NCBI GenBank assembly: GCA_951406725.2
Contig: OX597838.1
Coordinates: 38,316,001-38,380,000, forward strand
DNA from: Octopus vulgaris
Lineage: Eukaryota
Direction of reading: 5' to 3'
Length of the DNA stretch: 64,000 nucleotides
Shown piece by piece: positions 7,454-54,053 of the stretch. The notes under the pieces were generated by a model. The model saw nothing but the letters and a program-made list of their open reading frames with translations, was not told the origin of the DNA and did not search any database. Position 1 is the stretch's first letter, and each line of letters starts with the position of its first letter. The translations under genes and the position numbers were made by a program.

Positions 7454-7965
7454 TACATTTTAAATTATCACACTATTTCGCAAAACTCAGACACCCTTCA
7501 CTTTCAATATTAATTTTTCTCCGTCTTTTAGTAGTGGCGTGGGGCAGAGAAAATCCACCTAAATCATTGACTAGTAAAACGAGTCAGCAACTACTATCAC
7601 CCTGAGCAAAATAGCCCGAAAGAGACTTCACTGGACACAGAATGAAGTTACTGTTCTACTCAACAGCCGGCTTGACCTTTCGCAAAAAGCCAACACACAA
7701 ATGTCATGCGTCAGTAACGTTGCTTCTAAAATCGTCCCGCTTTTTGACAATCGAACAACTAAACAAGTGGAATCTAAACTAAAGCATTTTTCGAAATCCT
7801 ACCATCTCGTTAAAGAGCATCGTACAATACTCCATTCAATATTCGCCGATTCTGCTAAACGAAAATAATCGACCGCTAACTGTGATCTGTTAACTTTCCG
7901 ACCTAGTAATGCCCACACGCCAAAATCTGCTCACTCCATGATTACCGTGACAACCAATTCCTCAT

Positions 7966-12464: not shown

Positions 12465-13864
12465 TTCTTGGCAAAATAAATTTAAGACCGATGATAAAAG
12501 TTCTTTTTCTTACAAAATATTTTGCTACTAACACCATACAAATTATTTTTATCTTTTACACCTTGTGAAGAATTTATTTCTCTTTCGAATAATGCAGACA
12601 ATATCTATTTTCATACAACTTGAAGAATTCTAATGCTAAATTAATAAACGCTTCAAATTTACAGGCAAAATTAGTTTAAGGCCATGTAATATGTATGCAA
12701 AGTTTTTGCCAAAATGAGCAGTCACACAACTAGCCTAACTGCATTATATAGTGTTATAATTTAACGTTATTATACAATTGATTAATAATGGGAAAACAAC
12801 GTAGCCTCAGTACAGTCACAAAAGCAAAAATCATATTACTCCACCAGCAAAAAGTTTCCTTTTCGAACATCGGCAAGCAACTAAAGTGCAGTAAAACGGC
12901 TTGCGTGCAAGCGTGGAAGTTATACTCGGAGACTGGTCAATATAAAGATTGGCGCCCCCAGAAAAATGACGGCGCAGTTGGACCGTCGAATCCATCGACT
13001 TTCGGAAGGCAACAGAATGTTGGCAGTCGTTGACATTTGTAAACAATTGTCCAACGAGAATGGTGTTATTTTTACACCACAAACCGTCCGCTACCGTTTG
13101 AGAGAATTTGGATTACGTTGACGAATCGCTAGGAAAAAGCCAATAATATCCGAAAGAAATCGACTCAAACGCCTTAATTTCGCAGAAAGCCATGCTCAAT
13201 GGACTGCTGAAGATTGGTGCAGGATCCTTTGGAGTGACGAGTCACGCTTCTGTGTATTTGGATCAGATGGTAAAATATACGTCAGACGTCGCCCAACTGA
13301 GGGATTCCATCCGAAATGCGTGAAAAAGACGACGCAAGCATGGGCGGGAGTGTGATGGTGTAGCTTTGGTGTTGGCCCTCTAGTTAAAATTGATAGAAAG
13401 CTAAATAGTGTAGGTTATAGGAATCTACTAAAAGATAATGTGCCATATTTGACTCACCAAATGCCTCCGGGGGCTATATATCAGCAGGACAAAAGTCCTG
13501 TTCACAAAGCCAAAAAAATTATAGAATTTTTTGATCACCATAATATCGACGTAATCGAATGGCCTCCCCAGAGCCCGGACCTGAATTCGATCGAGAACTT
13601 GTGGAATTATGTTTCCAAAAATGTCCATGCTAAAAAACTATCTAATGTAAAACAATTATTCGATTATATCAATGAAATATGGCAAAACATTCCTATAGAA
13701 TTTTGTAATCACTTAGCGAATTCAATGCCGAGGCTTGTTCGGCCGATATGTAGAATAAAGGCTATGGCACAAAGTACTAATATGTATTTCGTTTTTGCTA
13801 CAATCTTAGGCTTTAAATAAAATTATAATGATACGGTCTTAAACTAATTTTGCCGGTAAATTTC
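12465..13864 (+). mobile_element. Tc1-family DNA transposon, decayed
   Basis: Inverted repeats AAATTTACAGGCAAAATTAGTTTAAGGCC (about 12655) and GGTCTTAAACTAATTTTGCCGGTAAATTT (about 13835); extra direct copy at about 12470; encloses a transposase pseudogene. Confidence 0.88.
12788..13780 (+). pseudogene. Tc1 DD34E transposase pseudogene with frameshifts and stops
   Basis: N-terminal HTH (MGKQRSLS...), WSDES near 13231, QQD followed by 34 residues then E in SPDLNSIENLW. Confidence 0.92.
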
Positions 13865-14744: not shown

Positions 14745-14829
<85 letters not shown>

Positions 14830-14843
14830 ATATATACATATAC

Positions 14844-14894
<51 letters not shown>

Positions 14895-14896
<2 letters not shown>

Positions 14897-15210
14897 GAAA
14901 TATTAATATTTCAAAATCTCTCTAAAAAAACTACGGCAGCAGTACTCGATATTAGTAGTTATCGCCAAGCAAACACGGCAGTCCAGCAGAATAGGACGAA
15001 TGCTGCCGTTGATTAGCTCCAAGAGGCAATCGCCTCTAGCTAGCTATGTGACACACAAACCTGTGTCCATTACAATCTTCGAATAAGGGGGTCAGCAGCT
15101 TCTCCTTGCTGGTCTGGCATCACCAGACTTGTTTCGGGGTATTTACCCCTTTTCAATGTAGAGTAGTCGAACCCAGCAGGGTCACTGCTGACCGTCTGTT
15201 TATTTACCTA
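14895..15210 (-). mobile_element. Diverged monomer of the 362-bp HHR repeat family, flanked by (TA)n
   Basis: Colinear with the array unit from TAGGTAAATAAA through the HHR, CTGACC..TTCGAAG and GGCGATAACTA to ATATTTCTA. Confidence 0.85.
15121..15165 (-). ncRNA. Type I hammerhead motif, U3-A8 core, stem I partly eroded
   Basis: TTGAAAA-GGGG(TAAATA)CCCC-GAAA-CAAG-TC on the minus strand. Confidence 0.7.
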
Positions 15211-15213
15211 TAT

Positions 15214-15265
<52 letters not shown>

Positions 15266-15399
15266 AATTTACAATATAAGGGCAAAAGAAAAATTCTAGT
15301 GCCAAATATGCCGAAATAAAGACAAAAATTGTCAATTAACCATTATAATTTATGCGTCTCGAAACAAACCGATAGAAATTTCTAAAATATTCGTTATTA

Positions 15400-15460
15400 C
15401 CGTATTGGACCAATTTCGGAGTTAATTCATAAGAATTTTCTCCTCTTCAGCGGCATATAC
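15400..15460 (-). ncRNA. Hammerhead-like motif, stem I eroded
   Basis: CTGAAGA-GGAG...CTCC-GAAA-TTGG-TC on the minus strand. Confidence 0.6.
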
Positions 15461-15694
15461 GCGAGATATAAGTGAAATACTTACTCATACCTATGGAAAA
15501 AGCAAACACCAAGTCCTGAGCAGACCTAAGTACCCCAAATATATCCAAAATAGAAAATCTTCGGCACGTCTCCAGACACGTGTTATTCGAACTAGAAACT
15601 TTCACAGAGTGATAGAATCCGGAAGTGAACACTATTCAATTTATAATTAATGTAGGATAAAATTTTTTCGGGAAAAAAATTTTATCATCCAGCA

Positions 15695-18749: not shown

Positions 18750-18951
18750 AAAAGGCGAACCAAATAGATCATTATAGGCCCATAACTCGCGCAGACTTGC
18801 GTTATTCTGAACAGATCTATCCACGACAACCTTCACCTCACTGCTAAAAGGCGAACCAAATAGATCATTTTAGACCCATAACTCTGCTAAACGGTATCGC
18901 GCAGACTTGCGTTATTCTGAACAGATCTATCCACGACAACCTTCACCTCAC
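18750..18951. repeat. Tandem duplication of about 92 bp, second copy with an extra 19-20 bp
   Basis: AAAAGGCGAACCAAATAGATCATT...CCTTCACCTCAC occurs twice. Confidence 0.9.
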
Positions 18952-18960
18952 GCGCTACAT

Positions 18961-18995
<35 letters not shown>

Positions 18996-19010
18996 AGGAA
19001 AGAACCTAGT

Positions 19011-19733
19011 ATGTGTGGTGCTCTGGTCAATTTGGATGAATCAAAATATTTTGAAAGGGTCACCTATCAACACTTGGAGGCCGTCCTTGCGGCGGCCGGC
19101 TTCGATTCCGTTTTCAGAGGCTGGATCGCTGCAATGTATAGTGGCATCTGTTCAGAGGTCAAAGTAAATGGCCATTTATCAGAATCGTTTAGCATCACTC
19201 GCTCGGTCCGTCAAGGGTGCCCACTCTTTCCCCGTCTGTAAGTGCTGGCTCTCGAGCTATTACTAAGGTAGTTGGATATTTCGAGGGGCATTCCGCGTGA
19301 CCTAGGATGCGGAAGGTTCGTGTCAGCTTATGCGGACGACGTCACTGTAATAGTGTCAGACACTTCGAAAATCGAGGTAATCGGTTCTAACTTAAGGGAG
19401 GACGAAGCGATGACAGGAGCAAAAAATTATTAAGGAATAGTCGGTGGGCCGGCAACTCGGCACCTGGAGAGGTTTGTCCATGCCAACCGACAGCGTTGCA
19501 GAACGCTGGACGGAAGGACCGGTTAAATTACTTGGGGTCTGGTTTGGTCCGGGCCTCCAGGGGGACAAGCACAGAGAGAGGTGACGACCAGGGTAGTCAA
19601 TCTCACCCAGAAACGGTCAGAGAGGAAGATGTCCCTGAAAGGTCGGGTGTTGCTGGCGAATGCGTACATTGTTTCCGTCTTCTATTACCGACTAACTGTC
19701 GTCTTCTATTACCGACTAACTGTCGTCCCTGTC
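19011..19733 (+). pseudogene. L1/Tx1-clade LINE reverse transcriptase fragment
   Basis: NLD..K.F.RV, RSVRQGCPL, YADDVT, VKLLGVWFG and SLKGRVLLAN motifs with stops and frameshifts; 24-bp internal duplication near 19676-19725. Confidence 0.9.
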
Positions 19734-27503: not shown

Positions 27504-28065
27504 GATTATAATAAAGGGTTAATTGCAACAAGTTGCTCAAAACCACATACCGAACATATTAGAAATAGCAGCCAAATAGGTCACCATTACTACTACTAGA
27601 AAAATAAGTCTCCACAAACAAACATTATTTGTAACCCGTATATGGTAAAGAGAAAGAAGACAACGAAATACCAGCCTATTTGGATTAATTATGGACGAAT
27701 TCGCTTCTGGATTAGAATCGAAAGTTTATTTCTTATAAAGTTTATTTCTTATAAAAATAAGAAAAATAGTGTGGAGCGACTGACCTCCCTTGTTCGAAGG
27801 TTATATGGATACAGTTTGTGTATCAAATAGCTAACTTAAGGCGATGGCCTCATGGAGCTAATAAGCGGACAGCTTTTTTCTTATTTTTATAAGAATGCCA
27901 TATTAGTATGGCGATAACTATTATTTTCCGGGAACGCTGCCGCTGTTCTCTTTTAGAGAGACTTAGTTATTTTAATATTTCTATTATTGAAAACAAGTGG
28001 ATGTATTCCACCGAAACTAGGTAAATAAAACCATCGAACAGAGATTGTCGGAAGCGACACCTACT

Positions 28066-28125
28066 GGCTGGCTACGCTGCATTGAAAAGGGGCAATACTC
28101 CGAAACGCGTCTGTAGCTGCCGGTC
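28066..28125 (+). ncRNA. Type I hammerhead ribozyme, U3-A8 core variant (copy 1)
   Basis: GCTGCA-TTGAAAA-GGGG(CAATA)CTCC-GAAA-CGCG-TC-TGTAGC, stem I extended by GGCTGGC/GCCGGTC; predicted cut after 28111. Confidence 0.82.
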
Positions 28126-28427
28126 AAGTAGTGTGGAGCGACTGACCTCCCTTGTTCGAAGGTTATATGGATACAGTTTGTGTATCAAATAGCTAACTTA
28201 AGGCGATGGCCTCATGGAGCTAATAAGCGGACAGCTTTTTTCTTATTTTTATAAGAATGCCATATTAGTATGGCGATAACTATTATTTTCCGGGAACGCT
28301 GCCGCTGTTCTCTTTTAGAGAGACTTAGTTATTTTAATATTTCTATTATTGAAAACAAGTGGATGTATTCCACCGAAACTAGGTAAATAAAACCATCGAA
28401 CAGAGATTGTCGGAAGCGACACCTACT

Positions 28428-28487
28428 GGCTGGCTACGCTGCATTGAAAAGGGGCAATACTCCGAAACGCGTCTGTAGCTGCCGGTC
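28428..28487 (+). ncRNA. Type I hammerhead ribozyme, U3-A8 core variant (copy 2)
   Basis: Identical to copy 1 at +362; predicted cut after 28473. Confidence 0.82.
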
Positions 28488-28645
28488 AAGTAGTGTGGAG
28501 CGACTGACCTCCCTTGTTCGAAGGTTATATGGATACAGTTTGTGTATCAAATAGCTAACTTAAGGCGATGGCCTCATGGAGCTAATAAGCGGACAGCTTT
28601 TTTCTTATTTTTATAAGAATGCCATATTAGTATGGCGATAACTAT

Positions 28646-28697
<52 letters not shown>

Positions 28698-29444
28698 TTA
28701 TATATATATATGTATGTATATATATATGCATATATATATTTGTGTGTGTATGTGTGTGCATGTATATATATATATATATAATTGAAAAATATCGTTATAA
28801 GTATAAGGTACAAATATACTATAAAATAATTATAGAAAAATGGAGGAGGAAAAAAGGTGTTGAATCAAAATTAGATTTTATACATAAGAGGATTCAATAC
28901 ATACGCGCTTCAAAGGACAATACAAATATGTAAGAAAAAAATTATAATCATAGTAATTATAATTAAATTTATGCATTGTCGTTCTCATCAGTGTGAGAAA
29001 GTTTTTTTTTATAGAGATAGATAGGTAGCTAGATATATGCATACACGCACACACATATATATGTATATATATGTATATATATTCCAAACGTATCTTAATG
29101 TAATCCTTGTATTGTTCTTTGTATACCGGATTGTTTTCGATACAAATTATGTAAATTGCAGAATTATATATTTATATATATTTTGTAATTTTGATTTTGC
29201 TTGGGAAATTAAACAATTGTTGGTGAATATGTTAATTAATTAATATAGTAATTTGTATCCATTTGATCCCCCCCCTTTTCAAACCTGATAATAATGTTTG
29301 ACATTGTATGATATTTTATGTGATACATCCATTGAAGTAATATCTCTTCAATATATAACTTAAATGATTATATCTTGGATAAATTATCACTTATGAGAGG
29401 TTTAAATGTCCTCATTGGGACTATATATATTTATATATATAGAT

Positions 29445-30342: not shown

Positions 30343-31960
30343 TCATCGGTTAACCTTGCCGGCCGGAGATGCATAACCTCTTTTCTAATGGAAGAAAGAA
30401 TACAGTCTTGATCAGCAGGGTGGTGAAATAAAATCCTGAATCTTGATTCTCCGAATCGAAAACCCCTTCTGAGTGAGATGGAGTTATCTAACCTTGACCG
30501 GTTCACTCCGAAAGGAGTCAGGTTATATGCGATTTCCGTACACTCGCAAGTAAGCGGGGTAATTCCATGTCTCCAACAAATTTTTTACTAATGAGGACAC
30601 AGGTTAAGCATCTGACTTTTGTAGGTTAAGGGTCTGTCGAATTATTTAAGATCCTTTCCTTTCTGTCTGGGTTAAGCGAAGTTCGCATTCTTTACTCCCT
30701 TTGACATATGGTCTACGACGTTCCAGGAGCCTCTATATCACCCTGTATGGCATTCCATCCTCTTAAACACGGTATCTAGTTGTCTAAAGCGGCGTGCTGG
30801 CAGAAACGTTAGCACGCTGGATGAAATGCTTAGCGGTATTTCGTCTGCCGTTACGTTGTGAGGTCGACTTTACCTTTCATCCTCTCGAGGTCGATAAATT
30901 AAGTACTAGTTACGCACTGGGGTCGATGTAATCGACTTAATACCTATGTCTATCCTTGTTTGTCCTCTCTATGTTTAGCCCCTTGTGGGTAGTAAAGAAA
31001 TGGGTATCTAGTTGGCTAAAAAATAAGGTACGCTTACTTGGTATCGTAAGAGGACCTGCGGTTATTTCGATGTATGTGTCCTTACCTTATCGGAGCTACT
31101 TTTATGGTTGCTGCTGTAATGGCTGCCTTTGCTGTTGTCACTGCTGTACATGCCGCCGGTACTGCTGTTGTTGTTGGTAAGCAACAATACGGGTAAGGGT
31201 GATTAGGGCTTAGGGGCGGGAGACCCCAGACCTTGGAAAAAAAACTTTGGTCGTCTTGTTGTAGTCAAGGGCTCTTCGTTGACGCCCGACACCACTGGGA
31301 GGTGGCCCTCGAAGTCGCTGGAAATGGAGATCTCCAGGTCCAAATTTTTCAACGGCTGCTGCTGCTACTGCTATCGTTTCCTTTGCTGTTGTTATTGGCA
31401 AACACCACCTGAGCTTCGGAATTGCATCAACCGACCACTTGGCATTCGCTGTTAACCATACATGAGCATTCTGCGCCTGCGCGGGATTTAGTGGCGTTCA
31501 CTAAAATCCTTTCCAATACCTATGCGTTTGGTGAAATACTTGTCCACTAATTTAACGAAAATAATTCCCACAGGTCTTGCAGTTCATGAGAAAGGTGAGT
31601 AAAACCAAATGGCCTTACGGTGGCGGTTTCTTTTCTGGTTGTTTAGGTCCCGGCATCAAGGAGATGCAGTCTTTAAAGCCCTGCTTGTCAAGACCTCGCT
31701 GTAATAGGGATCTGCAGCGTCGTGAAGCTTTTTATTCGGAGAGAGATTCGAAATCCTCAGACTGAGAACCTCCGCCAGGTACTTAAGTACAGTAGGTGGG
31801 TGGTTGGAGTCTGTGTTAATGTACGACGGCTTTGCATTCGGTTTGCGGTAGAAGCTCAATGAACTCGTGCCTAGATCGGGCGTAACATCTTTAAAGTTAA
31901 CTACGATAATATTGGTCTCAATTGTAATCTTAAAAGGCGAGAGTCGACAATATCTTTTTT
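30341..31960 (-). pseudogene. Decayed Penelope-like retroelement: RT C-terminus, linker and GIY-YIG remnants
   Basis: VNFKDVTPDL..FYRKPN..YINTDSNHPP...LRISNLS matches the Penelope RT thumb pattern (FLD..YRKP..Y..SNHP); LVDKYF linker; TYIEIT and KECEL resemble GIY-YIG motifs; interrupted by a SINE. Confidence 0.78.
30789..31002 (+). mobile_element. SINE family B with 18-bp TSD, inside the Penelope remnant
   Basis: GGTATCTAGTTG(T/G)CTAAA at 30771-30788 and 31003-31020. Confidence 0.9.
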
Positions 31961-32137
31961 TTAGTGAATATATCACACTCCAAAATGTATGCACAATTCA
32001 TATATACACAAATTCATATTATACACGCACACGCACGCAAACACACATACGAAGCCGCAATTATATTGCTTCCGCTGTATTCATACACATATATATACAT
32101 ATATATATGTACATGAATATATATATATATATGTATA

Positions 32138-52965: not shown

Positions 52966-54053
52966 CCCATTCATGCCGATCGTCCGTTTAAGCTGACACT
53001 TAATTTATAAGTGTGTAAAGCAAATACTTGATGCAAATTTCAGATTTGTGTATGATTGGCAAGGGCTTTGAAATAAAACCAAGAAGAAGTTCCAGACACC
53101 CAGCTGAGTACTTGATAGACACTGAATTTGCTGACGACATCGCTCTTATCAGTGATTCTCTCTTCAATGCCCAGTCTCTTTTACAATCTCTTGAAAAAGC
53201 CTCAAATTGTGTAGGTCTTTACCTCAATGAGGCCAAGACTGAATACATAAACAAGTGCCTGTCCAACAGTGATTGCATCATCCATACTCTCAACAATACG
53301 CCCTTAAATATGGTTTCTGATTATAAATATCTTGGGTCATACATATCATCATCTGGAAAAGACTTTCTAACTAGAAAGGGTATGGCCTGGTCAGCCTGTA
53401 ATGACATGCATAAGATCTGGTCATCAAATCTAAGTAGAGACTTCAAACTTGAAATCTTCAGAGCCACAGTCAAACCATTTCTACTATATGGCTCAGAAAC
53501 CTGGACGTTATCAAAGAAGCTTGAGAGGCGGTTGGATGGAACCTACACTCGCCTCCTTATGAGAGGTCAAAATCTCTCGTGGAAGCGCCATTCAACCAAA
53601 ATGCAAATATATGAGAAACTACCACCTGTGTCATCTCTTGTGAAAGGTAAGAGAGTCCAGTTTGCTGGACATTGTTGTAGAGCTGAAAAAGAGGTAATTT
53701 CTACTCTTCTCCTCTGGAAGCCATCTACTCGCAATACCAGAGGGCGCACACTCTCCTACCCTGATGTAATCTCCAGGGATACAGGCATCCAGCAACATGA
53801 CCTCCGTAATGCCATGATGGACCGTGAAGTCTGGCGTAGCATGGTAAATTCCATTGTCTCGACCACGGTCGAACAATGATGATGATGATGTGTATGATCT
53901 GTATCAAAGAATGAAACATGTTCTTAATGCGTATGAAGTCTGTACCAAACAGATTTCAATGAAGTTTTTTCCACTTGTTATTTAGGTCAAAATAATAATA
54001 TCTGTGAATTTCCAGGCAAATTCATTCGCCAGAATAATTTCGACACGAATGGT
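52966..54053. mobile_element. piggyBac-like miniature element (TTAA flanks) interrupted by an RTE LINE
   Basis: TTAA-CCCATTCATGCCGA ... TCGACACGAATGGT-TTAA, 11 of 14 terminal inverted repeat positions match. Confidence 0.55.
53057..53888 (+). mobile_element. 5'-truncated RTE-clade LINE, RT C-terminal ORF still open (about 273 codons), (GAT)n tail, 10-bp TSD
   Basis: FADDIAL, GLYLNEAKT, YKYLGS, LLYGSETW, FAGH motifs; TSD TGTGTATGAT at 53047-53056 and 53889-53898. Confidence 0.92.

What the first reader, a model, noticed from the sequence alone, without database searches (positions are those of the whole stretch)
14895..15210. Diverged sister monomer keeps the U3-A8 core and shows compensatory base-pair changes
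Seen: the minus strand aligns along the 362-bp unit with many substitutions. It keeps TTGAAAA/GAAA, stem II (GGGG/CTCC versus GGGG/CCCC), a hairpin that changes GATACA/TGTATC to GACACA/TGTGTC, an AGGC/GCCT hairpin enclosed by TAGCT/AGCTA, and an upstream GTC/GAC hairpin. Inference: U3-A8 is a family trait rather than decay, and selection acts on the structure of the whole RNA, as expected for a structured parasitic or circular RNA.
Basis: partly seen in the sequence, partly recalled or inferred. Interest (0 to 1): 0.75.

Follow-up and report, generated by a model that had tools for sequence, protein, structure and literature searches.

The report
Decayed copy of U3-A8 hammerhead retrozyme
This is an old, damaged copy of a genome-wide family of small protein-less jumping repeats that carry a hammerhead self-cutting RNA motif; the family shows paired base changes that keep its predicted RNA fold and was likely pasted into TA repeats by a Penelope-type enzyme, which makes it a new example of a known kind of element.

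Summary
The alignment is real (240 of 311 positions, z=33). The sister is one old copy of a genome-wide retrozyme family with several subfamilies. U3-A8 is fixed in the family: 1,919 exact genomic matches versus 2 C3-G8. It also occurs in co-resident Neptune-type Penelope-like elements and is already in print (PMC3088659, PMC4209133). Covariation holds between subfamilies: 10 double compensatory changes on inherited branches versus 0.9 expected, P=2e-4, in the hammerhead and outside it. This copy itself is decaying: 20 private substitutions, none compensatory, with hammerhead stem I and the dimer palindrome broken. Insertions end at two fixed sites joined to (TA)n, and 43 of 44 classifiable two-armed insertions use one of each, as do 6 of 6 in the Penelope-like element. 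Best reading: a non-LTR retrozyme copied from a circular or multimeric RNA by a Penelope-type enzyme. Cleavage and circles are untested. The scan already noted such retrozymes and this footprint on other DNA of this genome.

The parts
14894..15210 (-). Old, 5'-truncated copy (about 316 bp, shorter than one unit) of the 362-bp retrozyme family, with (TA)n on both sides
15121..15161 (-). Type I hammerhead motif of the sister: stem I 5' 15161-15157, core UUGAAAA (U3-A8) 15156-15150, stem II 15149-15136, GAAA 15135-15132, predicted cut after 15126. Stem I and the palindromic loop III are damaged.
15091..15192 (-). Long predicted rod extending hammerhead stem I (GTCAG 15192-15188 with CTGAC 15095-15091 and inner helices), with inherited double changes at alignment columns 80/150 and 90/141
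15050..15067 (-). GACACA/TGTGTC hairpin; true compensatory C-G/U-A change between subfamilies (41 C-G, 7 U-A of 49)
15014..15046 (-). TAGCT..GGC/GCC..AGCTA hairpin; conserved, with no inherited double change
14981..14997 (-). GTCC/GGAC hairpin (TTCT/AGAA in young subfamilies), with two inherited double changes
14952..14958 (-). Position of fixed 3' end E1 of the family (unit position about 269); not used as an end in this copy
14894..14900 (-). Fixed 3' end E2 (unit position about 332) joined to (TA)n; the end of this copy
14745..14896 (.). (TA)n microsatellite at the 3' end; inferred target
15209..15266 (.). (TA)n microsatellite at the 5' junction
27764..28651 (+). Young 2.4-unit array of the same family, ending at E1 and joined to (TA)n at 28651-28780
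28077..28116 (+). Intact U3-A8 type I hammerhead motif of the young unit (palindromic ACGCGU, predicted cut after 28111); second copy at 28439-28478

Best explanation
The stretch is a single old, truncated and decaying genomic copy of a genome-wide family of 362-bp hammerhead-bearing repeats (a non-LTR retrozyme), whose U3-A8 core and predicted RNA fold were inherited from active master copies that were likely under selection as RNA. Shown: a family of over a thousand copies in several subfamilies, fixed U3-A8, inherited compensatory changes, two fixed 3' ends joined to (TA)n, tandem and head-to-head arrays, and private non-compensatory damage in this copy. Inferred steps: (1) multimeric transcripts self-cleave through a dimeric hammerhead, because the palindromic stem III is kept as ACUAGU, ACAUGU or ACGCGU in different subfamilies; (2) monomers are ligated into circles, or uncleaved multimers persist; (3) a co-resident Neptune-type Penelope-like RT/GIY-YIG protein nicks both strands of a (TA)n tract and primes reverse transcription internally at the unpaired CUAUUA sites E1 and E2, one site per DNA end; (4) the enzyme reads repeatedly through the cleavage site and stops at random points. 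The sister is a one-armed E2 product shorter than one unit, so it was probably inactive from insertion.
For: Alignment z=33. Family size: 2105 and 1101 first-look candidates; 1,919 exact U3-A8 core matches versus 1 in the reversed control, and 20 C3-A8 plus 2 C3-G8 among 22 matches. N7 varies by subfamily while 3-8 stays U-A in 44 of 49 aligned copies; the exceptions came in largely through my own variant patterns. Young unit fold z=-6.25, and other subfamilies fold to a similar rod and hairpins. Inherited double changes 10 versus 0.89 (P=2e-4), terminal 7 versus 3.6 (P=0.06). 88% of cells pair, against 33-42% for slid structures. Of 57 two-armed insertions, 44 had both ends classifiable and 43 were E1+E2 (P=2.6e-12). 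An intact 781-aa RT+GIY-YIG element with a CxxxxCxxC linker occurs in many copies 98-100% identical; it carries a UUGAUAA core, ends in (TA)n, has a tail ending CTATTAT, and is tail/no-tail in 6 of 6 two-armed loci among 56 examined. In 40 young loci, 24 variants are shared by all units of a locus, 12 of them across both arms. Internal junctions are not enriched at the cut site (2 of 79, 1.5 expected). E1 and E2 are largely unpaired in the circular fold.
Against: No cleavage, circle or strand-specific RNA was observed. The retrozyme has no detectable sequence homology to the one Penelope-like family tested (BLASTN empty; shuffle test 72 and 474 of 500), and other Penelope-like families exist, so the partner is unproven. 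Covariation caveats: the structure came from the young unit's own fold; the young tip was counted as inherited; 2 of the 10 double changes are at the hand-added trans pair of adjacent bases; the null ignores site-rate variation; and the count of pairs with a change on both sides is only marginal (27 of 500 shuffles). Uniform arrays could also come from a uniform multimeric transcript or from later homogenisation; 10 mosaic variants exist. In an in vitro test 8 of 9 Xenopus retrozyme dimers did not cleave (10.64898/2026.07.22.740005).
Confidence: 0.78

Rival explanations
1. The family is mobilised only from linear, uncleaved multimeric transcripts of existing arrays. The hammerhead is a passenger or weakly active, no circle is needed, and selection acts on the fold for recognition by the Penelope-type protein.
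For: In the Anolis Penelope-like system, hammerhead mutants did not affect insertion and unprocessed RNA was the main substrate (PMC11167929). Junctions ignore the cut site. 10 variants are mosaic within arrays.
Against: The catalytic core and the dimer palindrome are kept across all subfamilies while N7 and the stems vary. Arrays of up to about 10 units share locus-private variants, also across both arms. No unique flank is seen in the loci examined. Circles are shown for mussel retrozymes of this size (PMC7229834 section 14).
Confidence: 0.3
2. This particular sister copy is a functional, host-selected structured RNA or an active second monomer.
For: It still folds better than shuffles (z=-4.67) and keeps the core bases and stem II.
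Against: 20 private substitutions with no double change; of 8 at validly paired positions, 5 break the pair. Stem I and the palindrome are broken. It has a single hammerhead, is shorter than a unit, and is no closer to the family majority than other old copies.
Confidence: 0.04
3. The units are solo terminal repeats (pLTRs) of a still unidentified autonomous Penelope-like family, expanded locally by unequal crossing-over as satellite DNA.
For: Retrozymes are proposed to derive from pLTRs and to expand locally (10.64898/2026.07.22.740005). The tail and inverted ends are pLTR features.
Against: No merged region examined (103) showed the unit next to a shared unique flank; upstream of each unit lies more of the unit, an inverted arm or host DNA. 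Near-identical arrays sit at dozens of dispersed loci with multi-unit arrays in both arms. Only top-scoring copies were examined.
Confidence: 0.1

Closest known systems
Metazoan non-LTR retrozymes (Cervera and de la Pena 2020, PMC7229834: passages and section 14 seen; Li, Clavereau and Pollet 2026, 10.64898/2026.07.22.740005: parts 1-3 of 5 seen)
   Same: Non-coding tandem unit of 362 bp (mussel 350-390 bp), GC 41%, one type I hammerhead per unit with a short palindromic helix III, dispersed monomers and multimers, co-resident Penelope-like elements.
   Different: U3-A8 core, which I did not see reported for retrozymes in the passages read; head-to-head two-armed insertions with two fixed ends in (TA)n ('inverted' has 0 occurrences in PMC7229834); circles and cleavage not tested here.
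Hammerheads of Penelope-like elements, including the U3-A8 variant of Schistosoma mansoni Cercyon (PMC4209133: parts 1-2 of 4 seen)
   Same: U3-A8 covariation (about 1,300 hits reported there), palindromic 15.2-16.2 and loop 3, predicted dimeric action.
   Different: Here helix II is 4 bp, helix I is long and extended, and the unit has no coding frame (longest ATG frame 38 aa).
Penelope-like element tail and internal priming (PMC11167929: parts 1-2 of 4 seen; PMC8557442 and PMC3846280: passages seen)
   Same: Two reverse-transcription start sites that define an optional tail, head-to-head inverted ends with the tail on one end, AT-rich or (TA)n targets, cleavage and extension of both strands.
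   Different: The tail here is about 63 nt rather than 30-40. Both start sites end in CTATTA(T), complementary to the target, whereas the Anolis element starts at non-homologous sites. The one-of-each rule is near absolute here (43 of 44); the passages read say only that the tail is often or optionally at one end.
Natural hammerhead core variants (Perreault et al. 2011, PMC3088659: passages seen)
   Same: C3-G8 to U3-A8 covariation seen in nature and stated to be active in vitro.
   Different: Here it is fixed in a high-copy animal repeat family and shared with autonomous elements of the same genome.

Membership tests
Non-LTR retrozyme | Type I hammerhead in each repeat unit | tested here: met
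   Motif in every full young unit. Rfam did not match either copy at E<=10, so the call rests on the motif and covariation. The sister's motif is damaged.
Non-LTR retrozyme | Tandem repeats of 150-450 bp, low GC, non-coding, no LTR | tested here: met
   362-bp period, GC 0.41, longest ATG frame 38 aa, arrays of up to about 10 units.
Non-LTR retrozyme | [quoted passage not shown] 2026) | tested here: not met
   Not met by the sister copy (single, 316 bp); met by the young array at 27764-28651. The sister is a dead family member.
Non-LTR retrozyme | Dispersed copies, evidence of mobility | tested here: met
   copies on many chromosomes, 98-100% identical in the young subfamily.
Non-LTR retrozyme | Self-cleavage of the transcript | not testable with these tools
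   Needs in vitro transcription.
Non-LTR retrozyme | Accumulation as circular RNA | tested here: inconclusive
   Only assembled contigs were available; they cannot separate a circle from a tandem array.
Non-LTR retrozyme | Target-site duplication | tested here: inconclusive
   Both flanks are (TA)n, so a duplication cannot be read.
Type I hammerhead ribozyme | Core with 3-8 Watson-Crick pair, U4 G5 A6, A9, G12 A13 A14, A15.1-U16.1, H17 | tested here: met
   UUGANAA, GAAA and UC in sister and young unit; U-A at 3-8 in 44 of 49 copies.
Type I hammerhead ribozyme | Stable stems I-III (III in trans through a palindrome) | tested here: not met
   Not met for the sister copy (stem I -1.0, palindrome +0.9 kcal/mol); met for the young unit (-6.5, -7.5) and the subfamily majorities.
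Penelope-like element (autonomous) | RT plus GIY-YIG open frame | tested here: not met
   The unit is non-coding. Such frames occur elsewhere in the genome.
Penelope-mobilised non-autonomous element | Tail (two fixed 3' ends), head-to-head inversion, microsatellite target | tested here: met
   the same pattern in the autonomous element.
Penelope-mobilised non-autonomous element | Sequence homology to the pLTR of a partner element | tested here: inconclusive
   None to the one young family and 30 GIY-YIG loci tested, apart from the hammerhead core; other families were not surveyed.

The most novel reading that the evidence does not exclude
A dimeric Penelope-type enzyme primes one circular retrozyme RNA from both strands of a cut (TA)n tract, strictly using site E1 for one DNA end and site E2 for the other, and runs round the circle many times. 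The subfamily series records selection on a whole viroid-like RNA fold, including a U3-A8 dimer hammerhead shared with the enzyme's own element. This would explain the Penelope tail as an obligatory two-site priming rule and give a compact substrate to reconstitute retrozyme mobilisation.
Probability: 0.4. Interest if true: 0.65.

Novelty: new member of a known kind. Interest (0 to 1): 0.4.

Why it matters
The copy itself is an ordinary dead repeat, and U3-A8 is a published variant. The family is useful for two open points. It gives tree-aware evidence that selection acted on the whole retrozyme RNA fold, not only the ribozyme. It also shows an insertion footprint (two fixed priming sites, one per DNA end, reading through the cut site) that matches a young intact Penelope-like element in the same genome, so the proposed but undemonstrated mobilisation of animal retrozymes by such elements becomes directly testable.

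Tried and rejected
Rfam: the whole-window scan listed only microsatellite-driven miRNA matches among the best 150 of 385, and focused scans of both copies gave no hammerhead match at E<=10. Local GTC/GAC hairpin as covarying: rejected (my first column choice was off by one and was corrected). Second hammerhead-like motif just after E2 (window 27987-28025): GAAA is not kept in old subfamilies (GAAT), so it is treated as a plain hairpin. C3-G8 version of the family: 2 exact matches genome-wide; the one fetched (L168) has no similarity to the unit. One search tested U3/C3 with G8 for N7=G/T only: 7 matches, all U3. Linear cleaved monomer as template: junctions are not enriched at the cut. Homology to the young Penelope-like terminal repeat: not significant. 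Expression: no RNA holder listed on record; contigs of four runs guessed to be RNA cover parts of the young unit, one being 392 nt (unit plus 30), which fits a tandem array as well as a circle; laying four runs on the sister gave only family cross-matches. Literature: searches for octopus + hammerhead ribozyme, cephalopod + retrozyme and octopus + Penelope + Neptune + transposable elements listed no description of this family; a search on tail, inverted and twin priming listed none stating the one-of-each rule. The library lacks most subscription papers, and supplements were not read (those of the 2026 preprint are closed; its 35 species include only four invertebrates). The taxon in those searches was my guess from genome size and repeats, not a call result. 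Rows dropped: 311 candidate copies were reduced to 50 at 97.5% identity and one badly damaged copy (L053) was left out, giving 49; 13 of 57 two-armed loci had an unclassifiable end.

Full report
Observation. The minus strand of 14895-15210 aligns to the 362-bp unit of the array at 27764-28651 at 240 of 311 positions; the score of 347 compares with a maximum of 117 in 1000 dinucleotide shuffles, z=33. Both carry a type I hammerhead motif with UUGAAAA in place of CUGANGA, which Rfam does not detect. The sister is 316 bp, lies between two (TA)n tracts and has one hammerhead.

The family. The genome (2.8 Gb) holds many relatives: 2105 first-look candidates for the sister, of which 40 were scored, the best at 85-88%, and 1101 for the young unit, the best at 99-100% and mostly in tandem. 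A tree of 50 dereplicated copies (from 311) shows a chain of subfamilies. The sister belongs to an old group and is 92.4% identical to the majority of 29 old copies, within their range of 90.3-94.8%.

U3-A8. An exact 16-letter core pattern with U3-A8 matches 1,919 times (reversed control 1). The same pattern with C3 matches 22 times, 20 with A8 and 2 with G8. N7 changes by subfamily (U, C, A) while the 3-8 pair does not. It extends further: autonomous GIY-YIG elements of at least two families in this genome have UUGAUAA hammerhead motifs near their 3' ends. It is not genome-wide, since the neighbouring repeat has C3-G8. It is known: natural U3-A8 covariation is reported in PMC3088659 (passages) and for Schistosoma Cercyon elements in PMC4209133 (parts 1-2).

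Covariation. The young unit folds with z=-6.25 into a long rod capped by the hammerhead, followed by hairpins; full-length copies of other subfamilies give a similar fold. I took that fold, put in the canonical hammerhead stems (108 pairs) and mapped substitutions on a tree of 49 copies. On inherited branches 49 pair-affecting events keep the pair and 27 break it; on terminal branches 110 and 160 (Fisher P=4e-4). Double changes number 10 on inherited branches against 0.89 when substitutions are re-placed at random (P=2e-4), and 7 against 3.6 on terminal branches (P=0.06). They fall in stem II, the dimer palindrome, the rod, the GAYAC hairpin and the downstream hairpin. Stem I changes from CUACA/UGUAG to CCACA/UGUGG and CUGCA/UGCAG, and loop III between three palindromes. 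Caveats: the structure derives from one of the sequences, the young tip was counted as inherited, two events are at adjacent bases, site rates are not modelled, and the simple count of covarying pairs is marginal (27 of 500 shuffles). R-scape was not available.

GATACA/TGTATC to GACACA/TGTGTC is a true inherited double change. CTCC versus CCCC is one-sided, and the window's young copy carries the minority state. The AGGC/GCCT and TAGCT/AGCTA stems are simply conserved. The local GTC/GAC hairpin has an A.C mismatch at its fourth pair in 31 of 41 copies, and the sister's A-U there comes from a private CpG change.

This copy is decaying. Its terminal branch has 20 substitutions, none compensatory; 5 of 8 at validly paired sites break the pair. 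Stem I drops to -1.0 kcal/mol and the palindrome is lost. With one hammerhead it cannot form the dimer in cis.

How copies are inserted. 3' ends fall at two unit positions, about 269 (E1) and 332 (E2), both ending CTATTA(T) and mostly running into (TA)n. In 103 merged regions there were 57 head-to-head insertions; 44 had both ends classifiable and 43 of these had one E1 and one E2 end (P=2.6e-12). Internal junctions are scattered and not enriched at the hammerhead cut (2 of 79), so the template continues through the cut site. In 40 young loci, 24 variants are shared by all units of a locus, 12 across both arms, against 10 mosaic and 50 single-unit variants. This fits one monomer sequence being copied repeatedly, but a uniform multimer fits too. 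The sister is a one-armed E2 insertion.

Likely enzyme. The genome holds a young element with an intact 781-aa RT plus GIY-YIG frame and a cysteine linker of the kind described for Neptune (clade feature from PMC8557442; no tree was built). It ends in (TA)n with or without a tail of about 37 nt that ends CTATTAT, and 6 of 6 two-armed loci among 56 have one of each. Two start sites defining the tail, with extension of both strands by a predicted dimer, were shown in vitro for an Anolis element (PMC11167929), and inverted ends with the tail on one side are described in PMC8557442 and PMC3846280. No homology beyond the core links the retrozyme to this family, so the partner is inferred.

Comparison and verdict. 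Size, low GC, tandem arrangement and type I hammerhead match metazoan non-LTR retrozymes (PMC7229834; 10.64898/2026.07.22.740005). The family works like one and meets the testable criteria; the sister is a dead member. Cleavage and circles remain untested. Earlier scan notes describe 360- and 485-nt retrozymes with the same footprint on other pieces of this genome; I reached and tested the footprint before reading them, and a look-up by the sister's sequence returned nothing. New member of a known kind; interest 0.4.

Noticed in passing
window 15267-15690 (-): A second, unrelated tandem family (period about 470 bp, 3441 first-look candidates) ends in the same (TA)n tract. It carries a canonical C3-G8 core (CUGAAGA..GAAA UUGG UC at 15450) with a long stem II and a non-palindromic loop III.
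   Followed up: partly
L091-L106, L176-L215: Young intact Neptune-like element with a 781-aa RT+GIY-YIG frame, an upstream 359-aa frame, a U3-A8 hammerhead motif with weak AU-rich stem I, and (TA)n targeting; dozens of copies 98-100% identical.
   Followed up: yes
L081, about 277 bp after the GIY-YIG match: Hammerhead-like motif with an A3-U8 pair (AUGAAUA), a palindromic CCGG loop and a very short stem II in another Penelope-like family; single copy seen.
   Followed up: no
window 27987-28025 (+): TTGAAAA..GTGGA/TCCAC..GAAA CTAG GTA directly after E2 resembles a second, degenerate hammerhead; only the hairpin is conserved across subfamilies.
   Followed up: partly
40 young loci: Non-fixed variants show 8 T>C versus 1 A>G on the sense strand (P=0.04); could be G-U misreading by the reverse transcriptase, or chance.
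   Followed up: partly
window 31656-31997 (-): Fragment with a YRKP..YI..SNHP stretch resembling the C-terminal part of Penelope-type RT (motif recalled; pairwise E=0.18 to the 781-aa protein, no Pfam match).
   Followed up: partly
window 13356-13820 (+), 18921-19241 (+), 53019-53879 (+), 7578-7868 (+): Fragments of other elements: DDE_3 transposase (E 3e-11), two RVT_1 pieces, and a weak Myb/SANT-like match.
   Followed up: partly
window 27721-27766 (+): A 16-bp direct duplication and a 21-bp inverted piece of the unit (positions 220-240) lie at the 5' junction of the young array, probably template-switch debris.
   Followed up: no
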